From the NCBI GenBank assembly GCA_964636505.1, contig CAZWRY010000002.1:17248-81247 (forward strand): a stretch of 64,000 bases of DNA. The letters run 5' to 3'. Numbering within the stretch: the first letter of the stretch is position 1; every line of letters starts with the position of its first letter. The position numbers and the translations under genes are program-made. The notes under the pieces were generated by a model. That model searched no databases. It was not told the origin of the DNA and saw only the letters and a program-made list of their open reading frames with translations. Source of the DNA: an uncultured Bdellovibrionales bacterium (lineage in GTDB: Bacteria > Patescibacteriota > Minisyncoccia > Moranbacterales > UBA2206). This document shows positions 3,654 through 55,871 of the stretch, one piece after another.

Positions 3654-5042
3654 TTATTCAGAAATTAATTTTACGGTTTCGCTAACCAAACCTTCTATTG
3701 AAATATCCGATTGATTGTCGTTGAATCCATCAGCGGCTACCTTTATTTGATATGTTCCTTTTGCAAGATATGGCAGTGTTGTCGGGAAAAAGGCCAATCC
3801 ATATTTGTCAGTAGTCAGAGTAACGTCATAACCGGCCGTTTCATTTTTTAAATTAACCGAGGCCCCTTCAATAGCAATACTTTCATCGCTGGCTCTGACT
3901 ACTTTAATCAGCAGCGAGTCGGCTGTTTTATCCGCAAAAATTGCCTTGACATCCATTGCTGTATTGGGTGCCAAATCAAACTGGACATTTAAATTCTGTC
4001 CGGGATCAACTTTTATGAATCGGTACTGGCTGGTTGAATCAGAAAAAACAAAAGTGTATGTTCCATAACTCATATTTTCCAGAATTTTTTCTCCCGTTTC
4101 CCCTGAATTGAGATTTTGGTTAAAAGTAAAAAGCTCAACTGAAGGAACATCCAATGTGTCTCCCTGTTTTCTGCCCCCAGAAAGATTAAATCCTATATTT
4201 TTAACTCTGTTACCCAAGGGATCTTCGGTGGTTAAATTTATACTGGAAATCTTGTCCGTTATGACTGCTTTCATATTTAATGTATCTGCAATAACTGAAG
4301 CGTGTATATCTACCGGATTAAAAGTACTTGTCGGATAGGGCGGATAGGTGTTTGCCGAATAATATCCGCTTTTTGAAACTTCCAATGAATAGTTGCGATC
4401 ACCGACTGGCATAGATGGAAGAGAAATATTACCCGTATCATCAGAAGAAACGGTCATATCCACTCCCTCAGATTGATTCTTGATACGGACTTGAGCTTGA
4501 GGTATGCCGTTGCCTGAATTATCTAAAATATTCAAGGCAAGCGTGCCGCCGCCCACGCTTTTTTCAACTCCGATAGGAGAAAAAATAGAAACAAGGAAAA
4601 CGGTTCGGCTTTTCATCGGATCGGTCCCCCAGGCAACTGTTATCTTTACTTCTTTATAATCATTTGGAATCGCATCATTGGGAACCAACCCTTGTTTTCC
4701 ATCATAAGCATCGTCTATGTATTTTATAAAGGTAGAAACATAATAAGTATTGGTATTTTGAATAACTGTTTCTTCGGCCAAAATATCTCCCCGCGGTACA
4801 CTCGTTGTGGTTCCGATGTCATCGTAGTCAAGATTTCTGATTATTTCCATTTTTTCATTCGCCAAAGCAGTCGCTTCTAATTTGAATTTTGATTCTCTGA
4901 TGTATTTGATTCCCAAAATAGCGGTTTGATAAAAACAAACCGCTATCAAGGAAAAAATAAGCAAAACAATCATTGCTTCCACCAATGTAAAACCGGCTGA
5001 AGCTTTTGTTTTTATTTTCCCTCCAAAAAAATGAACAAGCAT
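3654..5042 (-). CDS. Large type IV pilin-like protein (prepilin N-terminus plus Ig-like/carboxypeptidase-regulatory-like repeats).
   Basis: 462 aa; leader ...ASAG|FTLVEAMIVLLIF; repetitive beta-rich C-terminal region. Confidence 0.7.
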   Translation of the reverse strand: MLVHFFGGKIKTKASAGFTLVEAMIVLLIFSLIAVCFYQTAILGIKYIRESKFKLEATALANEKMEIIRNLDYDDIGTTTSVPRGDILAEETVIQNTNTYYVSTFIKYIDDAYDGKQGLVPNDAIPNDYKEVKITVAWGTDPMKSRTVFLVSIFSPIGVEKSVGGGTLALNILDNSGNGIPQAQVRIKNQSEGVDMTVSSDDTGNISLPSMPVGDRNYSLEVSKSGYYSANTYPPYPTSTFNPVDIHASVIADTLNMKAVITDKISSINLTTEDPLGNRVKNIGFNLSGGRKQGDTLDVPSVELFTFNQNLNSGETGEKILENMSYGTYTFVFSDSTSQYRFIKVDPGQNLNVQFDLAPNTAMDVKAIFADKTADSLLIKVVRASDESIAIEGASVNLKNETAGYDVTLTTDKYGLAFFPTTLPYLAKGTYQIKVAADGFNDNQSDISIEGLVSETVKLISE

Positions 5043-8539: not shown

Positions 8540-9481
8540 TCAGGCCGCCGGCAAAGAAATATAAAAAATTGATCCGATATCTTCTTTTGATTTAAACCAT
8601 GTTTTTCCGCCGGATTCTTCAATGATATTTTTCACAATGTATAAACCCAGCCCGGTGCCTTCGGCTCGGTAACGAGACACATTATAGCTCCGAAAAAATT
8701 TGCTAAAAACTTGTTTTTGCTGGCTCCCGGGTATTCCAATACCGTTATCTTTGATGCTAAGGATCCAAAAATTGTTATTTCTCTTGAGTAAGACTTCAAT
8801 TTTACCGTGTTTCCTGGAATATTTTATTGAGTTGCTGAGAAGGTTTTCCACGGCTAGTTTTATTTTTTCCGGATCGCCCACCACCCTCGCCTCCTTTTTG
8901 TTGTTTTTTACGCTAATTTTCATGGAAACTCCGCTATTTTTCAGTAACGGACCTAGGTCATTACCAACTTCTCTCACGATATCAGCTAAGTCAATCTTTT
9001 CTCTTTTTAAAGAAAGTCTTTTTTGGTCAATTCTAGCTACATCCAAAAGATCGCTCACGAGTCTGGACATCCGCTTTGTCAAAACTTCTATATTTTCTAT
9101 GCCTTGCAATTGTCTTTTATTTAAGCCATTTTTAAACTTTGAATTTAAAAGTTCTAACTCCCATTTAATTGCTGAGATTGGCGTCCGCAATTGATGAGAA
9201 GCCAAGGAAATAAATTCGCTTTTAGTTTTATTGAGCCTGTTTACCTGTTCAACTCCTTTAACAACCATGCCTCCAAAAAAGAAAATTGTTATCGTTACAA
9301 TAGTTTCTGATAAAATCAAGACCTCTGGATTATCATAATTTTTAGCAATAAAATAGGTGGCTGTCATCGCCATGGAGTTAACAACGCCTAAAACAATAAA
9401 CAAAAACGATGGAGTTTGCCAAACACTAACACCAAGATCGTTGGCTTGTTTTTTTAGATTTAAATCGTTTATTATTTTCAT
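8540..9481 (-). CDS. Membrane sensor histidine kinase.
   Basis: 313 aa; N-terminal TM helices, H-box SHQLRTPISAI, HATPase_c G-box GTGLGLYIVK. Confidence 0.8.
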   Translation of the reverse strand: MKIINDLNLKKQANDLGVSVWQTPSFLFIVLGVVNSMAMTATYFIAKNYDNPEVLILSETIVTITIFFFGGMVVKGVEQVNRLNKTKSEFISLASHQLRTPISAIKWELELLNSKFKNGLNKRQLQGIENIEVLTKRMSRLVSDLLDVARIDQKRLSLKREKIDLADIVREVGNDLGPLLKNSGVSMKISVKNNKKEARVVGDPEKIKLAVENLLSNSIKYSRKHGKIEVLLKRNNNFWILSIKDNGIGIPGSQQKQVFSKFFRSYNVSRYRAEGTGLGLYIVKNIIEESGGKTWFKSKEDIGSIFYISLPAA

Positions 9482-18944: not shown

Positions 18945-19919
18945 TTATTCCATCAGGACTAGGATCTTCCCCCTGATTTCAGCCTTTTTGGCCTCCATAA
19001 CGGAGAGGAATTTTTGGGCCGCCGCTAGCTCATCCTCCAGCCTCCGAACATTTTCGGCCAGGTTTTTTGTCTCGGTCTGAAACTCTACATATTCAGCCGA
19101 AAGAACTTCCAATTCCGTCTTGGCCGGTTCTTTTTGCTCGGAATTAAGACTGGGTATCTCCGCTTTTTTCTGTTCCTGATCCGAATGTCCAGCTTGTATA
19201 TCTTTTTGTAAGCCAAGAAGTTTTTGTCCCTTCTCAGCCAAAGAGAAATAAACTTTTATACGAGAAGTGGACGCCACTTTCTCAATATATCTCTCCTTTT
19301 CCAAAAATTTCACAGCCTGGGTTTCTGAACACTTGATACCCAGAGAAACAATAGTCTTCTTCAGCTGGCTCTGAAGAATCCTGCCGAACTCCGCCATCTG
19401 GACCTCCAGGAGAATAACCTTTATAGTTTCTTCGTCCAGAACATCGGCCACTATCCTCCGCGTAAAAAGCAGAGGGGCTTCTGTTAGGGCTGGAATTCCA
19501 GATGCAACTCTGCCCGCATTGTTTGCTCTCATCTTTTCTTGTCCCCTTTCTCCTTTTTTTATTTTATTTTTCTTTTCGTTCCGAAGATTAAATTCAACTT
19601 CGGCCTTTTTTAACAGATTAAAGAAGCTTTGTTCTTTTTCCGTATAGCCTTCCGGACGGAAAAAGAAGCAGTTAAACCGAGTCCCATTATCTCCCGGCTT
19701 CACTGCCACAACAACTGACCCTCTCTTGGGGTCTATTCTTTTAACTTCCAGCGGGCAGCAATGGGCAGAGCCTTTGATTTGCTCACCCAGATGAATATTT
19801 AATTCATAATCTTTTCTGTCAAACTGGACCAGTTCGAGGAACTCCTCAAGCAATTTCAACATTCCTTTCGGAATGTCTGTTGAGTGGGGTCCCTTCTTTA
19901 TACAAACTCTTTTTACCAT
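18945..19919 (-). CDS. Hypothetical protein: Cys-containing N-terminal domain, central winged-helix-like segment, C-terminal coiled coil. GC-richer than its neighbours.
   Basis: 324 aa; segment AEFGRILQSQLKKTIVSLGIKCSETQAVKFLEKERYIEKV...YFSLAEKG resembles a MarR/ArsR-type wHTH; heptad-rich tail; about 47% GC against about 35% in flanking genes. Confidence 0.5.
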   Translation of the reverse strand: MVKRVCIKKGPHSTDIPKGMLKLLEEFLELVQFDRKDYELNIHLGEQIKGSAHCCPLEVKRIDPKRGSVVVAVKPGDNGTRFNCFFFRPEGYTEKEQSFFNLLKKAEVEFNLRNEKKNKIKKGERGQEKMRANNAGRVASGIPALTEAPLLFTRRIVADVLDEETIKVILLEVQMAEFGRILQSQLKKTIVSLGIKCSETQAVKFLEKERYIEKVASTSRIKVYFSLAEKGQKLLGLQKDIQAGHSDQEQKKAEIPSLNSEQKEPAKTELEVLSAEYVEFQTETKNLAENVRRLEDELAAAQKFLSVMEAKKAEIRGKILVLME

Positions 19920-32455: not shown

Positions 32456-32661
32456 ATGGATTTAAACGTATTACTTAAAAATTTAACGCACTGTTATTTT
32501 AGCATTGACAACCCAAAGCAGACAAGGGAGAATAACCATCATTCTCATTTATCTGTTTTATTATAAAAAAAGACACAAGACAAACGTTATTATTCATTTC
32601 TCAAGCGAAAGCAAAAATCGTTAAATAGGTATACTTCCAACAAAGTCAAATTATAATAATA

Positions 32662-32694
32662 CAAAAAAAGCCGTCAACTCATAGTTAGCGGCTT
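32662..32694 (-). terminator. Terminator candidate for the 32733..33002 gene.
   Basis: Imperfect 10-bp stem GCCGTCAACT / AGTTAGCGGC with minus-strand T-run. Confidence 0.4.
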
Positions 32695-32732
32695 TTCTAA
32701 TTCGCGATGGATGATGATGTAGAAGTCTGGAA

Positions 32733-33002
32733 TTATTCATCTTCTTCCGATAGGTCGAAATAGATTATCTTACTCAAATCGCCAGTGGCTATATCCTCTT
32801 CCCTCTTCTTACGCTTTCTCTCCTCAAGAATGTCGGTAAAGCGGTATTTTACCCATGATTGCCATCTATTATGACAGATGGGACAATCCTGATACGGTTC
32901 AATTACCTTTCCACAACGGCAACAACGCAGAACGCCACCCTTGCTGTTTTTACGTACTGTCTCTATACACTCCTGAACATCTGCTTCGCTGAGCTGTTTC
33001 AT
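32733..33002 (-). CDS. Small zinc-ribbon protein, hypothetical.
   Basis: 89 aa; CCRCGK...CPIC pattern. Confidence 0.4.
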   Translation of the reverse strand: MKQLSEADVQECIETVRKNSKGGVLRCCRCGKVIEPYQDCPICHNRWQSWVKYRFTDILEERKRKKREEDIATGDLSKIIYFDLSEEDE

Positions 33003-33259
33003 AGAATTTCTCCTTCTCGTTGAGATATTTTGACAATATGGTTAAATAAAACAAAAATAAAATCAAATTTTTTAATTTTATCGCCTCTCTCTTTCTACAT
33101 CTAAAGAACGACCTGCAATGGTAGCATGAATAGAGTGATTTGTCAAATAAAAAATAATTTTTGCCTAATTTAAGCCATTAAAATAGTATGAAATGGAATA
33201 ATTAGCGCAAGAAACACTTTTCTTAGGTACTCACACAACCTAAAACCACAAATTCCTTT

Positions 33260-45297: not shown

Positions 45298-45528
45298 ATG
45301 GCTATCAAAGCTCGGATACAATTTCAGAGGATTTATAAAAATCCCGAAAAAACAATTTCTTTCAGAGAGGCTTTTATGTGCTCGGAAATTTCAACAAAAA
45401 AGATACATCAGCCCTCAGTGGATTATCAGCTCGCCGAAAATGAAGACGGGTTGTTTGAGAAAGCCTTTGACATTTTGTTTGAAGAAACATTGAGGCAAAA
45501 TAATGATTTGACAACTAATGACAATTAA
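45298..45528 (+). CDS. Hypothetical small protein.
   Basis: 76-aa ORF between the two recombinase genes; no motif. Confidence 0.3.
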   Translation: MAIKARIQFQRIYKNPEKTISFREAFMCSEISTKKIHQPSVDYQLAENEDGLFEKAFDILFEETLRQNNDLTTNDN

Positions 45529-45543
45529 GTATATAATAAAATT

Positions 45544-45723
45544 ATGGAATTTCTCACACTTGAACAAGTGGCTAAATACTTTGGAGTTCATCCTCGCACC
45601 GTTATGCGTTGGCTTAAGCAAGGCAGTCTCAAAGGTTATAAGTTGGGCAAAGGCAAAACGGCTCTTTTACGCATCCCCAAATCAGAAGTAAGTAAATTTT
45701 TAGAAAAACATAAAATCAAATGA
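45544..45723 (+). CDS. Excisionase / MerR-like HTH DNA-binding small protein; its stop overlaps the recombinase start (ATGA).
   Basis: 59 aa, below the ORF-track cutoff: MEFLTLEQVAKYFGVHPRTVMRWLKQGSLKGYKLGKGKTALLRIPKSEVSKFLEKHKIK; helix-turn-helix_17-like. Confidence 0.55.
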   Translation: MEFLTLEQVAKYFGVHPRTVMRWLKQGSLKGYKLGKGKTALLRIPKSEVSKFLEKHKIK

Positions 45724-48517: not shown

Positions 48518-48564
48518 GAAATGTTTTGTTTCATGTTTCATGTTCTATGTTTTATGAGTGTATG
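48518..48564 (+). repeat. NNNNATG heptamer ladder (CATGTT units) ending at the rpsF start codon.
   Basis: ATG triplets at 48521, 48533, 48540, 48547, 48554 and 48562 (spacing 12,7,7,7,8); the last is the S6 start. Confidence 0.65.
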
Positions 48565-49198: not shown

Positions 49199-49672
49199 AT
49201 GAATGTCAATAAAGTTCTTCTCGTGGGCCGGCTTACTCGCGATCCTGAAATAAGGACAACTGCCGGAGGCCAAAATGTCGCTTCACTTAGTTTGGCCACT
49301 AATCGTTTTTGGAAAGATAAAAATGGACAAAGACAAGACAAGACCACTTTTCATAATGTTATCCTTTGGGGAAGATTAGCTGAAATTGCAGGGCAATATT
49401 TGACTAAAGGGCAAGAAGCTTATATTGAAGGCCGCATAGAAACACGCAAATATACTGCCAAAGACGGAAGTGACCGCTATATTACGGAAATAATCGCTGA
49501 AAATATGCAGCTTGGATCGAAACCCCAGGGAGGAAACGGCGCCTATAATGCTTCAACTTCTAGGCCTGCCCAAAACACTCCGAGTGGACAAGGCTCAGCA
49601 CCCGAGGAAATCCCGACCATCAACCTGGATGAAGAGCAAGAAGAAGTAAAAATTTCAGATGTACCCTTTTAA
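49199..49672 (+). CDS. ssb: Single-stranded DNA-binding protein.
   Basis: 157 aa; OB-fold (LVGRLTRDPEIR...), Gly/Gln-rich linker, acidic C-terminal DVPF tip. Confidence 0.88.
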   Translation: MNVNKVLLVGRLTRDPEIRTTAGGQNVASLSLATNRFWKDKNGQRQDKTTFHNVILWGRLAEIAGQYLTKGQEAYIEGRIETRKYTAKDGSDRYITEIIAENMQLGSKPQGGNGAYNASTSRPAQNTPSGQGSAPEEIPTINLDEEQEEVKISDVPF

Positions 49673-49993: not shown

Positions 49994-50038
49994 TATTTTC
50001 ATGTTATATGTTCCATGTTTTATGTTTCATGAATTATG
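49994..50038 (+). repeat. Perfect 7-nt NNNNATG ladder of six units ending at the efp start codon.
   Basis: ATG at 50001, 50008, 50015, 50022, 50029 and 50036, each exactly 7 nt apart; the last is the efp start. Confidence 0.7.
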
Positions 50039-50593
50039 TTAGGTATAAGTGAAATAAAAACAGGAAAAAACATCATTTTAAATAAAGAACCCTTCGCGGT
50101 TCTTTACCACGAACATTCTAAAACAGGCCGTGCTGGATCCGTTCTCAGAACCAGACTTCGCAACCTCTTAACAGGTGCTGTCTTGGAAAAAACATTTCAA
50201 GGCGCCGAACAAGTTACCGAAGCTGATATTACAAAATCCAAAGCTCAATTTCTCTATAAAGAAAAAGAGGTCTATTCTTTTATGGATACGGAAAACTACG
50301 ACCAATTTTCTCTTTCGTCTGAAACTTTGGGCGATGCCGTAAATTATTTAATTGAAGGCACGGAGGTCTCAGTTTTGAATTTCAATGGCAACCCGATCAA
50401 CATTGAATTGCCGGTTAAGATAAGCTTGGAAGTTATGGAAGCTCCACCCGGAATAAAAGGCAACACTGTTTCTACTGGCGGAAAAGTTGTAACTCTGCAA
50501 ACCGGACTCAAGATTTCTGCACCTCTTTTCATTAACCAAGGCGATGTCATCATCGTAAACACAGAGCGAGGAGAATATGTCGGGCGAGCCTGA
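50036..50593 (+). CDS. efp: Elongation factor P.
   Basis: 185 aa; KOW-like N-domain and two OB domains; GKG region; ...RGEYVGRA C-terminus. Confidence 0.85.
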   Translation: MLGISEIKTGKNIILNKEPFAVLYHEHSKTGRAGSVLRTRLRNLLTGAVLEKTFQGAEQVTEADITKSKAQFLYKEKEVYSFMDTENYDQFSLSSETLGDAVNYLIEGTEVSVLNFNGNPINIELPVKISLEVMEAPPGIKGNTVSTGGKVVTLQTGLKISAPLFINQGDVIIVNTERGEYVGRA

Positions 50594-50894
50594 ATCATAG
50601 AACATGCGCAACATAAAACATGCCTGCCCGCTAACGCGGGACGCAACCATGGAAACATACAACGGACTTGTTTAATTTTCTGCAATATTTTTCATCTCTT
50701 ATTTAAAGAAAAAGCCGAGCTTTGAAAAATTTTTCTCTTAAATATAAACAAAAAAACTCTGAACCAATCAGAGTTTTATTTTTATTTTCTATTTTTAAAA
50801 TATCCTTAAGCTTATTTCAATAATCTTTTTTTATTATTGTAAATATTTTTACCTCTATTATTGTTTCAAAAAAGCTTTTTGATATTTTGTTCTT

Positions 50895-51059
50895 TTATAA
50901 TATTCCGGCAGTGCTAATGAAGGTGAACACCATCACTGGGACCATGGCAACCAGAATGGCGAAGTTTCTTTCTTCTTCTCTTTTTATTTGTTTCGCCCGC
51001 TTTCGACACTCGGGACAATCTGACCCGCACCCTTCTTCTTTTTTGATATCTTCTTCCAT
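50895..51059 (-). other. Cryptic 54-codon ORF (CxxxCxxC N-terminus plus C-terminal TM helix) inside a GC-rich structured island; could equally be a small ncRNA.
   Basis: Minus-strand ATG...TAA translates to MEEDIKKEEGCGSDCPECRKRAKQIKREEERNFAILVAMVPVMVFTFISTAGIL. It has no clear SD and uses GC-rich codons atypical for the genome. Confidence 0.25.
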
Positions 51060-51154
51060 GTTGTTTTTTGTTTCCGCATGAGGCGCCTTCCTGCCGGTAT
51101 GCAGGGATTCGCCTTGGTTGGAAAAAATTACTAATTAAGCCTGGATTTAACACT

Positions 51155-51192
51155 AAAAAATAAAAAAGCGGGAATTCACCCGCTCCTTTTTT
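51155..51192 (-). terminator. Rho-independent terminator of recA (bidirectional).
   Basis: AGCGGG AATTCA CCCGCT flanked by A-run and T-run. Confidence 0.7.
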
Positions 51193-51249
51193 AGCTTCTT
51201 CTGCACTACATTATAATTATACACCTAAGCGCCTTAAAAGTCAATGTTT

Positions 51250-52254
51250 TTAATCCTGCGCGTCTTCTTTTTCTTTCATCTTTTCATAAATTTTTTTGGA
51301 AATTTCTTTCATCAGCTTCCCATCACTTTTGATGGCTGCCTTGGCTGCCTCGCGTCCTACGCCCAATTTTGTTTCTCCAAAAGAATACGAGTTACCCTTT
51401 TTATCAATTGCTTCAAGTTTGACTCCGGTATCCAAAATATCTCCGGAAGCGGAAACTCCTTCATTATACATGATATCAAATTCGGCTGTCTTGAAAGGCG
51501 GCGCTACTTTATTTTTTACAATCTTGACTTTCACTCTGTTGCCAACGATATCTTCGCCTTTTTTTATTTGCGCCGATCGCCTGACTTCAATGCGCACGGA
51601 AGAATAAAATTTAAGAGCGTTTCCGCCGGTAGTCGTTTCCGGATTTCCAAAAACAATTCCAATTTTCATTCTGATCTGATTGATAAAAATAACCGTGCAA
51701 TTTGATTTAGCCACAATAGCCGTGAGTTTCCTAAGAGCTTGAGACATTAGCCTGGCCTGCCTGCCCATATGCTGGTCTCCCATCTCACCCTCAATTTCTG
51801 CTTTGGGCACCAGAGCCGCTACAGAATCAACGACAATAACACTCACGGCTCCGGAATTAACTAAAGTTTCCACAATATCCAAAGCTTGCTCTCCGTTATC
51901 CGGCTGGGAAATAAGCAAATCTTTAATATTAACACCTATTCTTTTGGCATATTCAGGATCAAGAGCATGTTCAGCATCAATAAAAGCAGCTACACCTCCG
52001 GCTTTTTGCGCATTGGCAATAATATGTAAAGTTAAAGTTGTCTTTCCGGATGATTCAGGCCCATAAACTTCAATTATCCTGCCACGTGGAATGCCGCCAA
52101 TTCCTAGAGCGATATCCAAAGAAATTGAACCGCTCGGAATAGATTCAACATCAACTTTTTTAACATTACCAAGTGTCATAATAACCCCTTCACCGAATTT
52201 GTCTTTTATTTGTTCCACAACTGTACTGATAGCCTTGTTTTGTTCTTCTTTCAT
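51250..52254 (-). CDS. recA: Recombinase RecA.
   Basis: 334 aa; Walker [11 protein letters not shown]1/L2 loops, typical RecA sequence. Confidence 0.95.
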
Positions 52255-55731: not shown

Positions 55732-55871
55732 AATACAATTATTTTAGCACAAAAAAAGCAAAACAAGAAATCTTAAATAAAAAACATATTTGCTGATGAT
55801 ATTATATCACTACTCTTCTTTTCTGCCTAGCCCTACTTGTGGATAAGTTATCAAAAGGGCAACCATGCACA

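What the first reader, a model, noticed from the sequence alone, without database searches (positions are those of the whole stretch)
50660..51249. 650-bp gap between convergent efp and recA contains a GC-rich structured island and a cryptic Cys-motif/TM small ORF
In a compact genome a 650-bp non-coding gap is conspicuous. Positions about 50880..51130 are much more GC-rich than the flanks and are full of short hairpins (CGGGACAATCTGACCCG, GGCGCC). The minus strand holds a 54-codon ORF (CGSDCPECRK motif plus C-terminal TM helix) without a convincing SD and with atypical codons. The island could be an unannotated small RNA (candidates such as SRP RNA, 6S or tmRNA could not be confirmed by eye) or a tiny metal-binding membrane protein.
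Basis: seen in the sequence. Interest (0 to 1): 0.5.

Follow-up and report, generated by a model that had tools for sequence, protein, structure and literature searches.

The report
Small conserved membrane-protein gene beside recA
The GC-rich island between efp and recA is not an RNA gene but a real 54-codon gene for a tail-anchored Cys-motif membrane peptide, found only in Patescibacteria and of unknown function, with its own strong promoter and an unusual terminator hairpin right after it.

Summary
The 656-bp efp/recA gap is real. Its GC-rich part has coding-type composition and no more structure than shuffled sequence (z about 0.2). No Rfam family matches it, and there is no tRNA or tmRNA.

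The minus-strand 54-codon ORF (50895-51059) is a real gene:
- Synonymous sites between homologues are saturated (pS 0.57-0.92) while pN is only 0.05-0.12.
- All indels are multiples of three.
- It is the only frame open in all 12 lineages compared.

It belongs to an uncurated family of at least 150 protein clusters from Patescibacteria/Moranbacteria/Parcubacteria, all labelled "hypothetical". The pattern is an acidic N-terminus, CP[E/H]C, a 14-residue charged helix, then a 22-residue transmembrane segment that ends the protein.

In 6 of 8 distant lineages the gene adjoins ftsK-rodZ-recA. In every lineage, including relocated copies, it carries the same 5' module:
- a consensus TTGAC-N17-TATAAT promoter;
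- 15-34 nt later, a terminator hairpin with an invariant CGGGUG arm and a U-tract;
- an AU-rich spacer and, in about 10 of 12 lineages, a second hairpin;
- in all 12, an A-rich tract without a Shine-Dalgarno sequence before the ATG.

The missing Shine-Dalgarno sequence is normal for this genome. What the protein does (metal or redox knuckle at the membrane?) and how read-through is controlled are inferences only.

The parts
51239..51244 (-). -35 hexamer TTGACT of the sORF promoter. It starts 5 nt after the recA stop codon.
   Evidence: scores the site 11/12 against the consensus. It is one of only 3 TTGAC-N17-19-TATAAT sites in 64 kb, against 0.22 expected. TTGAC(T/A) is kept in all 12 lineages compared.
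51210..51221 (-). -10 hexamer TATAAT (51216-51221), directly followed by a second -10-like hexamer TATAAT (51210-51215). The transcription start is predicted near 51209.
   Evidence: GTATAAT is invariant in the 4 close lineages and TATAAT is kept in all 12. A second TATAGT/TATAAA/CATAAT-like hexamer lies 0-6 nt downstream of the -10 in most lineages (sequences printed). The start site itself is inferred and has not been mapped.
51155..51189 (-). Hairpin 1: an A-tract, the stem-loop GCGGGTGAATTCCCGC (core 51168-51183) and the U-tract TTTTTTATTTTTT. It is a promoter-proximal intrinsic terminator that also ends recA transcripts. It scores as a terminator on both strands.
   Evidence: - One search detects it as terminator-like on both strands, and one search gives the coordinates.
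- It is the only CGGG...CCCG+T-run hairpin in the window.
- The 5' arm CGGGTG is invariant in 12/12 lineages. The closing pair covaries G-C / G-U / A-U / C-G, and dG ranges from -9.8 to -18.1 kcal/mol.
- It is also present where the upstream gene is divergent (L016, L021) and where recA has its own terminator (L003/L009).
51122..51140 (-). AU-rich spacer motif GCTTAATTAGTAATTTTTT, related to CTAATTAATTTAATT in other lineages.
   Evidence: Related motifs appear in L001, L015 and L021 (TTAATTAATTTAATT), L019, L013, L022 and L006. Its function is unknown. The background is AT-rich, so this conservation carries limited weight.
51081..51114 (-). Hairpin 2: the GC-rich stem-loop AGGCGAATCCCTGCATACCGGCAGGAAGGCGCCT in the 5' UTR.
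   Evidence: - The last 60 nt before the ATG fold to dG -17.6 kcal/mol, z -4.2.
- About 10 of 12 lineages have a stable hairpin of unrelated sequence ending 7-21 nt before the ATG, with mean z -3.3.
- Only 4 of 26 window genes with long upstream gaps show such structure.
51060..51074 (-). Unpaired A-rich tract GAAACAAAAAACAAC directly before the start codon. This is the SD-less initiation region.
   Evidence: - 11 of the last 14 nt are A.
- The same AAAACAAAAAT-type tract occurs in all 12 lineages.
- It matches the typical upstream context of genes in this window.
50895..51059 (-). sORF of 54 codons plus stop: MEEDIKKEEGCGSDCPECRKRAKQIKREEERNFAILVAMVPVMVFTFISTAGIL. It encodes a tail-anchored small membrane protein with a CPxC motif.
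   Evidence: - Homologues are 72-98% identical and lie in the same position.
- pS is 0.57-0.92 against pN 0.05-0.12. Differences sit at the third codon position 19-33 times, against 0-10 at the first or second. Indels are multiples of 3.
- It is the only frame open in 12/12 lineages.
- The family has 33 representatives at 50% identity and at least 150 clusters at 90% identity.
- C15, C18, L36 and P41 are invariant and G52 is nearly invariant (at least 90%).
- AlphaFold2 predicts one helix, residues 16-51/53, with pLDDT up to about 90 in the TM part.
- It is single-copy in the window.
50818..50863 (-). 3' UTR element: the inverted repeat CAATAAT...ATTATTG enclosing AGGTAAAAATATTTAC.
   Evidence: It is conserved among the four close lineages although their synonymous sites are saturated. 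It is not recognisable in distant lineages. Its function is unknown. A weak RAGATH-17 hit here (24.8 bits against a gathering score of 102.3) is chance-level.
50750..50777 (.). Bidirectional intrinsic terminator AAAACTCTGATTGGTTCAGAGTTTTTTT, shared by the sORF (-) and efp (+).
   Evidence: One search detects it on both strands. One search shows it almost invariant in the close lineages, loop included. L017 has the same loop TGATTGGTTCA with a covarying stem.

Best explanation
The gap holds a self-contained, monocistronic small-gene unit on the minus strand.

Transcription. A near-consensus sigma-70-type promoter (51244-51216) starts transcription just after the recA stop codon. About 20-30 nt into the transcript lies an intrinsic terminator (hairpin 1, 51189-51155). 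This hairpin also ends recA transcripts. I infer that most transcripts from the promoter stop there as an RNA of about 50 nt, and that a fraction reads through. That fraction may be regulated.

Translation. Read-through RNA carries an AU-rich spacer, a GC-rich hairpin 2 and an unstructured A-rich tract. From that tract the 54-codon ORF is translated without a Shine-Dalgarno sequence, as is normal in this genome.

The product. It is a tail-anchored peptide with these parts, in order:
- a disordered acidic N-terminus;
- a C-x3/4-CPxC knuckle that caps one long helix;
- 14 charged residues;
- a 22-residue transmembrane segment that ends the protein.

Its family is restricted to Patescibacteria (Moranbacteria/Parcubacteria-type genomes) and is usually linked to ftsK-rodZ-recA.

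Most likely function (inferred, low confidence). The peptide acts as a small membrane-bound metal-binding or thiol-redox module. Two or more copies could share a Zn/Cu/Fe site through their CxxC pairs. It would modulate a membrane process encoded next door: FtsK/RodZ-dependent division or chromosome handling, or RecA-linked repair.

What is shown and what is inferred. Shown: coding status, family, synteny, promoter/terminator/leader conservation, and the absence of any known RNA family. Inferred: the transcription start site, attenuation, topology, metal binding, and any partner.
For: Coding status:
- It is the only frame open in 12/12 lineages.

Not an RNA gene.

Synteny:
- The order ftsK-rodZ-recA-sORF is seen in the window and in P0062, P0071, P0096, P0046 and P0093.
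- In P0089 the sORF lies directly upstream of ftsK-rodZ-recA instead.

The 5' module belongs to the sORF:
- All 23 family loci, and the window exactly once, match TATAAT-N8-35-CGGGTG just upstream of the sORF.
- None of 120 control contigs that match the promoter+CGGGTG pattern by chance has the hairpin plus T-run or a family ORF.
- The module persists where the upstream gene is divergent (L016, L021) and where recA has its own terminator (L003/L009).
- Hairpin 1 energetics, covariation and U-tracts are.
- Hairpin 2 and the A-tract are.

Promoter quality: it is one of 3 consensus sites in 64 kb.

The SD-less context is normal here: and PMC9297842.
Against: - There are no transcript, proteomic or topology data, so the start site, termination efficiency and translation are all unverified.
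- I found no antiterminator structure upstream of hairpin 1 (15-34 purine-rich nt only). Regulated read-through therefore has no visible RNA mechanism.
- Family-wide only two Cys are invariant. The N-terminal part is net acidic (mean -3.7), so the positive-inside rule does not fix the topology.
- No neighbouring protein (FtsK, RodZ, RecA) carries a matching CxxC (read from the translations).
- Linkage to ftsK-rodZ-recA could be inherited gene order rather than functional coupling. Two of 8 distant members lie elsewhere.
- The candidate operator palindrome at recA/ftsK promoters is absent from the sORF promoter.
Confidence: 0.85

Rival explanations
1. The GC-rich island is a structured non-coding RNA gene: SRP RNA, 6S RNA, tmRNA or an undescribed sRNA. 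On this reading the ORF is fortuitous.
For: There is local GC enrichment and there are some hairpins in the 5' UTR.
Against: - No Rfam family reaches its gathering score in the window, and only chance-level hits appear in the gap. Eight related loci have none either.
- There is no tmRNA or tRNA.
- Folding energy equals that of shuffles.
- Substitutions concentrate at third codon positions, and amino acids are conserved while synonymous sites are saturated. That is a protein signature, not an RNA one.
Confidence: 0.03
2. The promoter plus hairpin 1 is a separate gene for a tiny trans-acting sRNA of about 50 nt: a purine-rich 5' tail such as AUAGUGAUAAA followed by a terminator hairpin. The sORF merely lies downstream and is expressed by leak-through or from another weak promoter.
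For: - The arrangement is a canonical sRNA layout: a strong promoter, a short single-stranded 5' region, then a terminator with A- and U-tracts.
- The invariant CGGGUG arm suggests sequence-specific recognition.
- There is no antiterminator partner.
Against: - The module is never seen without the sORF in the 23 loci and travels with it to new genomic sites.
- In L016 and L021 no other promoter-like element precedes the sORF.
- The 5' tail is only loosely conserved across distant lineages.
- No target has been identified.
Confidence: 0.25
3. The sORF is the toxin of a type I toxin-antitoxin system: a small hydrophobic peptide with a long structured leader, repressed by an antisense RNA.
For: It is a small single-TM peptide. 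It has a strong promoter and a structured 5' UTR with a hairpin close to the initiation region. A conserved AT-rich element lies just 3' of the ORF, where 3'-overlapping antitoxin RNAs often start.
Against: - It is single-copy.
- It holds a stable syntenic position next to core genes across lineages that share only 35-50% identity.
- It is under very strong purifying selection and has a conserved soluble CPxC-helix part.
- No conserved plus-strand promoter was found by inspecting the aligned 3' region.
- PADLOC models give no consistent hit.
Confidence: 0.06
4. The sORF is a DNA-damage-induced small membrane inhibitor of cell division. It would be a functional analogue of SidA/DidA, YneA, SosA or ChiZ, which explains its place beside recA, ftsK and rodZ.
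For: It adjoins the ftsK-rodZ-recA cluster in 6 of 8 distant lineages, at either end of the cluster. Its size and membrane anchoring resemble those inhibitors (my own knowledge of those systems).
Against: - The palindrome GTGATATAATATCAC overlaps the -10 of recA/ftsK promoters and is the best operator candidate. It is absent from the sORF promoter, which looks constitutive and consensus-like.
- No lexA gene was identified among the cluster's neighbours checked. The gene divergent from ftsK is an L,D-transpeptidase. The window was not searched systematically for lexA.
- There is no sequence similarity to known inhibitors.
Confidence: 0.1
5. The gap is decayed or non-functional DNA, and the ORF is a chance open frame.
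For: None beyond its small size and slightly low codon index.
Against: The ORF, promoter, hairpins and terminator are conserved across lineages whose synonymous sites are saturated.
Confidence: 0.01

Closest known systems
TIGR04104 (cxxc_20_cxxc putative zinc-finger membrane proteins) and the LITAF-like zinc ribbon (PF10601)
   Same: Both have a CxxC knuckle directly joined to a membrane-embedded hydrophobic helix. 22 of 35 family members give weak TIGR04104 hits and 8 of 35 give weak LITAF-like hits.
   Different: Those families need a second CxxC or HxCxxC knuckle after about 20 residues or after the hydrophobic stretch. Here the protein ends with the TM segment and has only one CxxC. The window protein scores 14.4 bits against a 45-bit cut-off.
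NapE (PF06796 / TIGR02973), the small single-TM subunit of periplasmic nitrate reductase systems
   Same: The size is similar (about 55 aa) and there is one TM helix with an E...F..L....P pattern. 11 of 35 members hit weakly, and one JGI record for a family member (P0131) carries a truncated 'nitrate reductas...' name, presumably NapE.
   Different: The window protein scores 13.6 bits against a 25-bit cut-off. NapE has no CPxC motif (my own knowledge). None of the neighbouring genes in the loci examined is a nap gene.
CxxC-at-helix-N-cap motifs: the HMA copper-binding domains (GMTCxxC; ATP7A 1y3j) and the DsbA/thioredoxin active sites (CPHC, CGPC)
   Same: The CxxC sits at the N-terminus of a helix. 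Many members carry exactly CPHC. The best PDB sequence hit is the ATP7A HMA domain, aligned over CxxC plus the helix, at E = 0.035.
   Different: The hit is not significant. There is no ferredoxin-like or thioredoxin fold, only a single helix. The chemistry (metal versus disulfide) is untested.
FeoB-associated Cys-rich membrane protein (PF12669)
   Same: It is a small, single-TM, Cys-rich bacterial peptide. The window protein gives a weak hit, E = 0.09.
   Different: The order is reversed: in that family the TM comes first and the Cys cluster last (my own knowledge). The score is 13.5 bits against a 27-bit cut-off. There is no feoB gene nearby.
Promoter-proximal intrinsic terminators and attenuators, e.g. 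lambda PR'-tR' '6S' RNA with Q antitermination, and the B. subtilis pyrG leader (my own knowledge)
   Same: A strong promoter is followed within a few tens of nt by an intrinsic terminator ahead of the gene. A -10-like hexamer lies in the initially transcribed region, as at sigma-dependent pause sites.
   Different: No antiterminator protein, qut-like site, reiterative-transcription start or alternative RNA pairing has been identified. There is no Rfam model.
SOS-induced small membrane division inhibitors (SidA, DidA, YneA, SosA) and type I toxins (TisB, DinQ)
   Same: They are small membrane peptides encoded next to DNA-repair or SOS genes.
   Different: There is no shared operator with recA/ftsK and no sequence similarity. 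The gene is a core-like, syntenic, single-copy gene with a conserved soluble CPxC helix.

Membership tests
Known structured RNA families (SRP RNA, 6S RNA, tmRNA, any Rfam 15 family) | A covariance-model score at or above the family's gathering threshold | tested here: not met
   There are 0 hits in the window at gathering score. The best permissive hit in 50550-51300 is the L20 leader at 22 bits against 58.7. ARAGORN finds no tmRNA. Eight related loci have no hit in the leader or ORF.
Protein-coding gene (generic) | The reading frame is conserved, substitutions are mostly synonymous, and indels are multiples of three | tested here: met
   pS is 0.57-0.92 against pN 0.05-0.12, and dN/dS is about 0.05 where it can be computed. 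Indels are 3, 12 or 15 nt. It is the only frame open in 12/12 lineages.
Tail-anchored single-pass membrane protein | A single hydrophobic helix of about 20 residues at the extreme C-terminus and no signal peptide | tested here: met
   Hydropathy is 2.0-2.3 over residues 32-54. All 35 members have exactly 22 residues from the F33 position to the C-terminus, with at most one charged residue. AlphaFold2 predicts a helix over residues 16-51/53. Membrane insertion and orientation cannot be tested here.
TIGR04104 cxxc_20_cxxc zinc-finger membrane proteins | Two CxxC pairs about 20 residues apart and a score of at least 45 bits | tested here: not met
   The score is 14.4 bits. There is only one CxxC and the protein ends after the TM segment.
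LITAF-like zinc ribbon (PF10601) | An N-terminal CxxC knuckle, a hydrophobic helix, and a C-terminal (H)xCxxC knuckle | tested here: not met
   No residues follow the hydrophobic helix. Only sub-threshold hits appear, in 8 of 35 members.
NapE (PF06796) | A Pfam gathering score of 25 bits and a nap operon context | tested here: not met
   The score is 13.6 bits. The neighbours are recA, efp, ftsK and rodZ.
FeoB-associated Cys-rich membrane protein (PF12669) | A gathering score of 27 bits, an N-terminal TM followed by a Cys cluster, and feoB linkage | tested here: not met
   The score is 13.5 bits and the hit covers only residues 6-20. The domain order is the opposite. There is no feoB gene adjacent.
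Intrinsic (Rho-independent) terminator | A GC-rich stem-loop immediately followed by a U-tract | tested here: met
   Hairpin 1 has a 5-11 bp stem with 3-5 consecutive G-C/C-G core pairs, dG -9.8 to -18.1 kcal/mol, and 3-6 U in the tail left unpaired after the stem, which already pairs part of the U-tract with the A-tract, in 12/12 lineages. Termination in vivo cannot be tested here.
Transcription attenuator or riboswitch-type leader | A terminator between promoter and ORF, plus an alternative (antiterminator) structure or a ligand- or protein-binding element that controls it | tested here: inconclusive
   The position criterion is met in all lineages. By inspection, the 15-34 nt upstream of hairpin 1 have no complementarity to the terminator arm (sequences). 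There is no aptamer and no Rfam hit. The invariant CGGGUG arm could be a protein site, which is untested.
Type I toxin-antitoxin | A small hydrophobic toxin plus a cis- or trans-encoded antisense RNA, usually multi-copy or patchily distributed | tested here: not met
   The peptide is small and hydrophobic. However, it is single-copy, stably syntenic and under strong purifying selection. No conserved antisense promoter was seen by inspecting. Absence of an antisense RNA cannot be proven without RNA data.
SOS-regulated small division inhibitor | The promoter carries the same repressor operator as recA/lexA, and the gene is damage-inducible | tested here: not met
   The candidate operator GTGATATAATATCAC is found at recA promoters in L013, L015, L019 and L022 and at the window's ftsK promoter (55796-55810). 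It is absent at the sORF promoter. Inducibility cannot be tested here.

The most novel reading that the evidence does not exclude
The invariant CGGGUG terminator hairpin, placed 15-34 nt after a consensus promoter and followed by a -10-like hexamer, would be a new Patescibacteria-specific cis-regulatory device: a protein- or polymerase-controlled attenuator, or a tiny sRNA of about 50 nt. It would gate the synthesis of a lineage-specific tail-anchored CPxC peptide. That peptide would couple metal or thiol-redox state at the membrane to the FtsK/RodZ/RecA machinery of these ultra-small cells.
Probability: 0.15. Interest if true: 0.6.

Novelty: new member of a known kind. Interest (0 to 1): 0.35.

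Why it matters
The result removes a false lead: there is no hidden SRP, 6S or tmRNA here. It also shows that 'empty' gaps in compact Patescibacteria genomes can hold real, strongly constrained small genes.

The family is widespread in Moranbacteria/Parcubacteria-type genomes and has no curated model and no known function. It sits next to division, shape and recombination genes in organisms whose cell biology is almost unknown.

Its leader is a clean, testable example of a promoter-proximal terminator with a sequence-invariant arm in a lineage that largely lacks Shine-Dalgarno-led initiation.

The practical value is modest: a family definition for annotation, and a candidate regulatory motif for metatranscriptomic checks.

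Tried and rejected
- **Rfam.** I scanned the whole window at gathering score, the gap permissively, and eight related loci permissively. Nothing credible came up. The L20-leader, SpF25 and STnc hits only reflect the terminator hairpin and AT-rich flanks.
- **ARAGORN** found nothing.
- **Single-sequence folding** of the island on both strands showed no excess stability.
- **Protein libraries.** Pfam, NCBIfam, PADLOC and PHROGs gave only sub-threshold hits on the window peptide and on 35 family members.
- **PDB profile search.** The best hit was the ATP7A HMA domain at E = 0.035, which is not significant.
- **Fold search** was not run, because the model is a single helix and matches would be meaningless.
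- **Metagenome DNA scan.** I scanned with TTGAC-N17-19-TATAAT-N8-35-CGGGTG to find leaders independently of the protein. None had the hairpin or a family ORF. They served only as negative controls.
- **RNAalifold on MAFFT-aligned hairpin 1 segments** failed because the 3' arms were misaligned by variable loops. I replaced it with per-sequence folds anchored on CGGGUG.
- **Domain fusions.** Longer 'homologues' are mis-called N-terminal extensions, and one PAS-kinase match is a low-complexity artefact.
- **Other frames.** The alternative ORFs in the island (79 aa on the minus strand, 64 aa on the plus strand) have no Pfam hits and are interrupted in relatives.
- **LexA link.** The gene divergent from ftsK is an L,D-transpeptidase, not lexA.
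- **Literature.** Searches found no description of this family.
Full report
**Observation.** efp (50036-50593, +) and recA (51250-52254, -) are confirmed by Pfam, so the convergent gap is 656 bp. GC rises to 0.43-0.48 between about 50900 and 51100 and falls to 0.16-0.26 in 50650-50900. This is not exceptional. Genes in the window have GC 0.30-0.44 and intergenic DNA 0.32, so the island simply has coding-type composition. Folding 50880-51160 on either strand is no more stable than dinucleotide shuffles, with z +0.15 and +0.21.

**Is it an RNA gene?** The evidence says no.
- Rfam 15 gives no hit at gathering score anywhere in the 64 kb.
- A permissive scan of 50550-51300 gives only chance-level matches (E at least 0.08, scores less than half of the gathering values), and these sit on a terminator hairpin and AT-rich flanks.
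- ARAGORN finds no tRNA or tmRNA.
- Eight related loci have no Rfam hit in the equivalent region.

**Is the ORF a gene?** The evidence says yes.
- The 54-aa product of 50895-51059 (-) has homologues of 72-98% identity. All are encoded just downstream of recA on the same strand, while the gene on the other side differs: efp in some contigs, other genes in others.
- Codon-aligned comparison of four lineages gives 19-33 third-position differences against 0-10 at first or second positions. pS is 0.57-0.92 (saturated), pN is 0.05-0.12, dN/dS is about 0.05 where it can be computed, and indels are only multiples of three.
- Across 12 lineages this is the only one of six frames that is always open. 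The plus-strand 64-aa ORF of the window is interrupted in 8 of 12.
- The start codon is unambiguous, being the first ATG/GTG/TTG after the upstream stop.
- The missing Shine-Dalgarno sequence is not an argument against translation. Almost all of about 48 genes in the window have A/T-rich upstream regions such as AAAAACAAAA-ATG. A subgroup of Parcubacteria has been reported to lack the anti-SD motif of 16S rRNA (PMC9297842).
- Codon usage is only mildly low: index 0.64 against 0.71 +/- 0.05 for equal-sized windows, the 7.7th percentile.

**The protein family.**
- A profile search of 1.84 billion representatives finds 33 proteins. The word-indexed search finds at least 150 clusters.
- Nearly all are 45-80 aa. 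The longer ones are mis-called N-terminal extensions or a low-complexity artefact.
- Every name the sources give is 'hypothetical protein', except one truncated JGI 'nitrate reductas...' (NapE-like) label on P0131, and every named organism is Patescibacteria, Candidatus Moranbacteria or Parcubacteria.
- The alignment shows C15, C18, L36 and P41 invariant and G52 nearly invariant. The motif is C-P-[E/H]-C in most members. 22 of 35 have a third Cys 1-5 residues upstream. The spacer to the hydrophobic segment is fixed at 14 residues, and exactly 22 residues run from the F33 position to the C-terminus.
- AlphaFold2 predicts a disordered N-terminus and one continuous helix from the CPxC to the end, with pLDDT about 90 in the TM part.
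- No Pfam, NCBIfam, PADLOC or PHROG model reaches its threshold. The recurrent weak hits are NapE, LITAF-like, TIGR04104 and DUF2116.
- The best PDB sequence match is the GMTCxxC-helix of an ATP7A copper-binding domain at E = 0.035. This is an analogy in local geometry, not homology.
- The gene is single-copy in the window.

**Genomic context.** I checked eight distant members (33-50% identity) that lie on long contigs.
- Five have the window's arrangement: ftsK-rodZ-recA-sORF, then convergent efp-rpsR-ssb-rpsF.
- One has the sORF directly upstream of ftsK-rodZ-recA.
- Two lie elsewhere: beside a sortase locus, and beside SHOCT and MgsA/RarA genes.

The linkage to ftsK-rodZ-recA is therefore frequent and occurs at both ends of the cluster, but it is not obligatory.

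**The non-coding anatomy.** This is the most interesting part of the gap. Reading the minus strand, the elements are:
- the recA stop codon (51250-51252);
- the -35 hexamer TTGACT (51244-51239);
- a 17-nt spacer;
- the -10 hexamer TATAAT (51221-51216), directly followed by a second TATAAT;
- about 30 purine-rich nt;
- hairpin 1, GCGGGTGAATTCCCGC, flanked by an A-tract and the U-tract TTTTTTATTTTTT (51189-51155);
- an AU-rich spacer containing GCTTAATTAGTAATTTTTT;
- the GC-rich hairpin 2 (51114-51081);
- the A-rich tract GAAACAAAAAACAAC;
- the ATG, the ORF and the TAA stop;
- a conserved AT-rich inverted repeat (50863-50818);
- a bidirectional terminator (50777-50750) shared with efp.

The promoter is one of only three TTGAC-N17-19-TATAAT sites in the window, against 0.22 expected, and all three lie in long gaps ahead of ORFs.

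*The module belongs to the sORF.* The pattern TATAAT-N8-35-CGGGTG occurs exactly once in the window and exactly once in each of the 23 family loci, always just upstream of the sORF. It is retained in three informative situations:
- In L003/L009, recA has its own terminator and a 230-nt insert separates it from the module.
- In L013, the unit sits in front of ftsK.
- In L016 and L021, the upstream gene is divergent, so there is no upstream transcript to terminate.

Hairpin 1 is therefore part of the sORF unit and not merely the recA terminator, although in the window it must serve as that too.

*Properties of hairpin 1.* Its 5' arm CGGGUG is invariant in 12 lineages. The 3' arm and closing pairs vary with compensation (G-C, G-U, A-U, C-G). 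dG ranges from -9.8 to -18.1 kcal/mol, and a U-tract always follows. It is the only hairpin of this type in the window. As a control, none of 120 metagenomic contigs that match the promoter+CGGGTG pattern by chance has the hairpin with a T-run or a family ORF.

*Properties of hairpin 2.* It has a different sequence in each lineage. In about 10 of 12 it ends 7-21 nt before the ATG, with mean z -3.3, and all 12 lineages have an A-rich tract directly before the ATG. Only 4 of 26 window genes with long upstream gaps show comparable structure.

**Mechanism: what is shown and what is inferred.**
- *Shown:* a monocistronic unit with a conserved promoter, a promoter-proximal terminator, a structured leader, an SD-less A-rich initiation region, a constrained ORF and a terminator.
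- *Inferred:*
  - Transcription starts near 51209.
  - Most transcripts end at hairpin 1 as an RNA of about 50 nt.
  - The strong promoter compensates for this, so that read-through yields the mRNA.
  - Read-through may be controlled through the invariant CGGGUG arm and/or the -10-like hexamer in the initially transcribed region, which could act as a sigma-dependent pause site. No antiterminator pairing is visible.
- *The peptide:* most plausibly it is tail-anchored with the CPxC-capped helix in the cytoplasm, where a CxxC pair would bind metal, possibly shared between protomers. However, the N-terminal part is net acidic (mean -3.7). An N-out orientation with a DsbA-like CPHC redox pair is therefore not excluded.
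- *Functional link:* a link to FtsK, RodZ or RecA rests on synteny alone.

**Rivals.**
- An ncRNA gene and decayed DNA are effectively excluded.
- A separate tiny sRNA (promoter to hairpin 1) remains possible and is compatible with the attenuator view.
- A type I toxin is unlikely, given single copy, stable synteny and strong constraint on the soluble part.
- An SOS-type division inhibitor is weakened by the operator evidence. The palindrome GTGATATAATATCAC overlaps the -10 of recA promoters in four lineages and of the window's ftsK promoter (55796-55810), yet it is missing at the sORF promoter.

**Organism.**
- The two closest species-representative genomes are MAGs labelled 'uncultured Bdellovibrionales bacterium'.
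- Every other named family member is Patescibacteria, Moranbacteria or Parcubacteria.
- The window shares its gene order with a Candidatus Moranbacteria contig.
- I therefore take the window to be a Patescibacteria genome. I could not verify the discrepant label.

**Verdict.**
- The ncRNA interpretation is wrong.
- The small membrane protein interpretation is right as to gene and architecture, and unproven as to metal binding.
- The family and its leader are undescribed but belong to known kinds (a small membrane protein and a leader terminator). Novelty and interest are therefore moderate.

Noticed in passing
window 48532-48551, 50000-50040, 50594-50622: Tandem heptad-like repeats (C/T)ATGTTnn lie directly upstream of the efp start and of the probable rpsF start. 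An inverted copy lies right after the efp stop. A perfect 13-nt inverted repeat, CATGTTTTATGTT (50014-50026) / AACATAAAACATG (50610-50622), brackets efp. There are 14 matches with at most 2 mismatches against 4.2 expected. A similar run lies upstream of the sORF promoter in L003/L009. It could be a 5'/3' UTR pairing or a protein-binding array.
   Followed up: partly
window 55796-55810; L013, L015, L019, L022 upstream of recA: The palindrome GTGATATAATATCAC overlaps the -10 of recA promoters in four distant lineages and lies upstream of ftsK in the window, with 1 mismatch. It is a candidate repressor operator, possibly SOS-box-like, for the ftsK-rodZ-recA cluster. The gene divergent from ftsK is a LysM+YkuD L,D-transpeptidase, not lexA.
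   Followed up: partly
whole window: Almost no gene has a Shine-Dalgarno sequence. Upstream regions are A/T-rich, for example AAAAACAAAA-ATG. A few exceptions carry GGAG-like motifs (15546, 18945-19919, and the small ORF at about 33002). This fits the reported loss of the anti-SD motif in part of the Parcubacteria (PMC9297842).
   Followed up: partly
window about 32733-33002 (-): The 804-bp 'gap' 32456-33259 holds an ORF of about 89 aa, rich in Cys (…RCCRCGKVIEPYQDCPICHNRW…), preceded by AAGGAG. A consensus promoter TTGACG-N16-TATAAT (32677-32650) follows it, ahead of the next gene. The ORF was not analysed further.
   Followed up: no
window 45508-45723 (+): The consensus promoter TTGACA-N18-TATAAT (45508-45537) lies only about 6 nt before the ATG of a 59-aa ORF (45544-45723) that looks helix-turn-helix-like. 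The ORF overlaps the next gene's start in the sequence ATGA. This is probably a leaderless mRNA. The ORF was not scanned against Pfam.
   Followed up: no
window 50818-50863 (-); L001, L006, L009 equivalents: The AT-rich 3' UTR block AAACAATAAT-AAGGTAAA…TTTAC…-ATTATTG is conserved among close relatives even though their synonymous sites are saturated. It has an outer 7-bp inverted repeat and an inner GUAAA/UUUAC stem. Its function is unknown.
   Followed up: partly
window 50750-50777; L017 about 4175-4200: The sORF/efp bidirectional terminator keeps the same loop, TGATTGGTTCA, in the window group and in L017, whose protein is 43% identical. The stem covaries: CTCTGA/TCAGAG against CTTTGA/TCAAAG. 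That is unusual sequence conservation for a terminator loop.
   Followed up: no
window 50594-50749: The efp 3' UTR is about 160 nt long in the window, against about 30 nt in L001. It contains the inverted heptad motif and a small GC hairpin, CCCGCTAACGCGGG (about 50631-50644). It may be an insertion.
   Followed up: no
L001 about 880-905; L006 about 575-605: A similar hairpin element, GATCAGCC(nn)GGGCTGAAA, occurs upstream of the sORF in L001 (where it serves as hairpin 2) and downstream of the sORF in L006/L009-type loci. This suggests a small repeated or mobile hairpin.
   Followed up: no
L009, L010 (genome contigs): The closest species-representative genomes are MAGs titled 'uncultured Bdellovibrionales bacterium'. 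Their gene order and the family distribution point instead to Patescibacteria/Moranbacteria. This may be a taxonomic mislabel.
   Followed up: no
window 8540-9481 (-) and 49199-49672 (+, ssb) upstream regions: Two other genes share the layout of a stable GC hairpin ending 9-12 nt before the ATG, followed by an A-rich tract. Their z-scores are -5.3 and -3.7. This may be a recurrent initiation or mRNA-stability architecture in this SD-less genome.
   Followed up: partly
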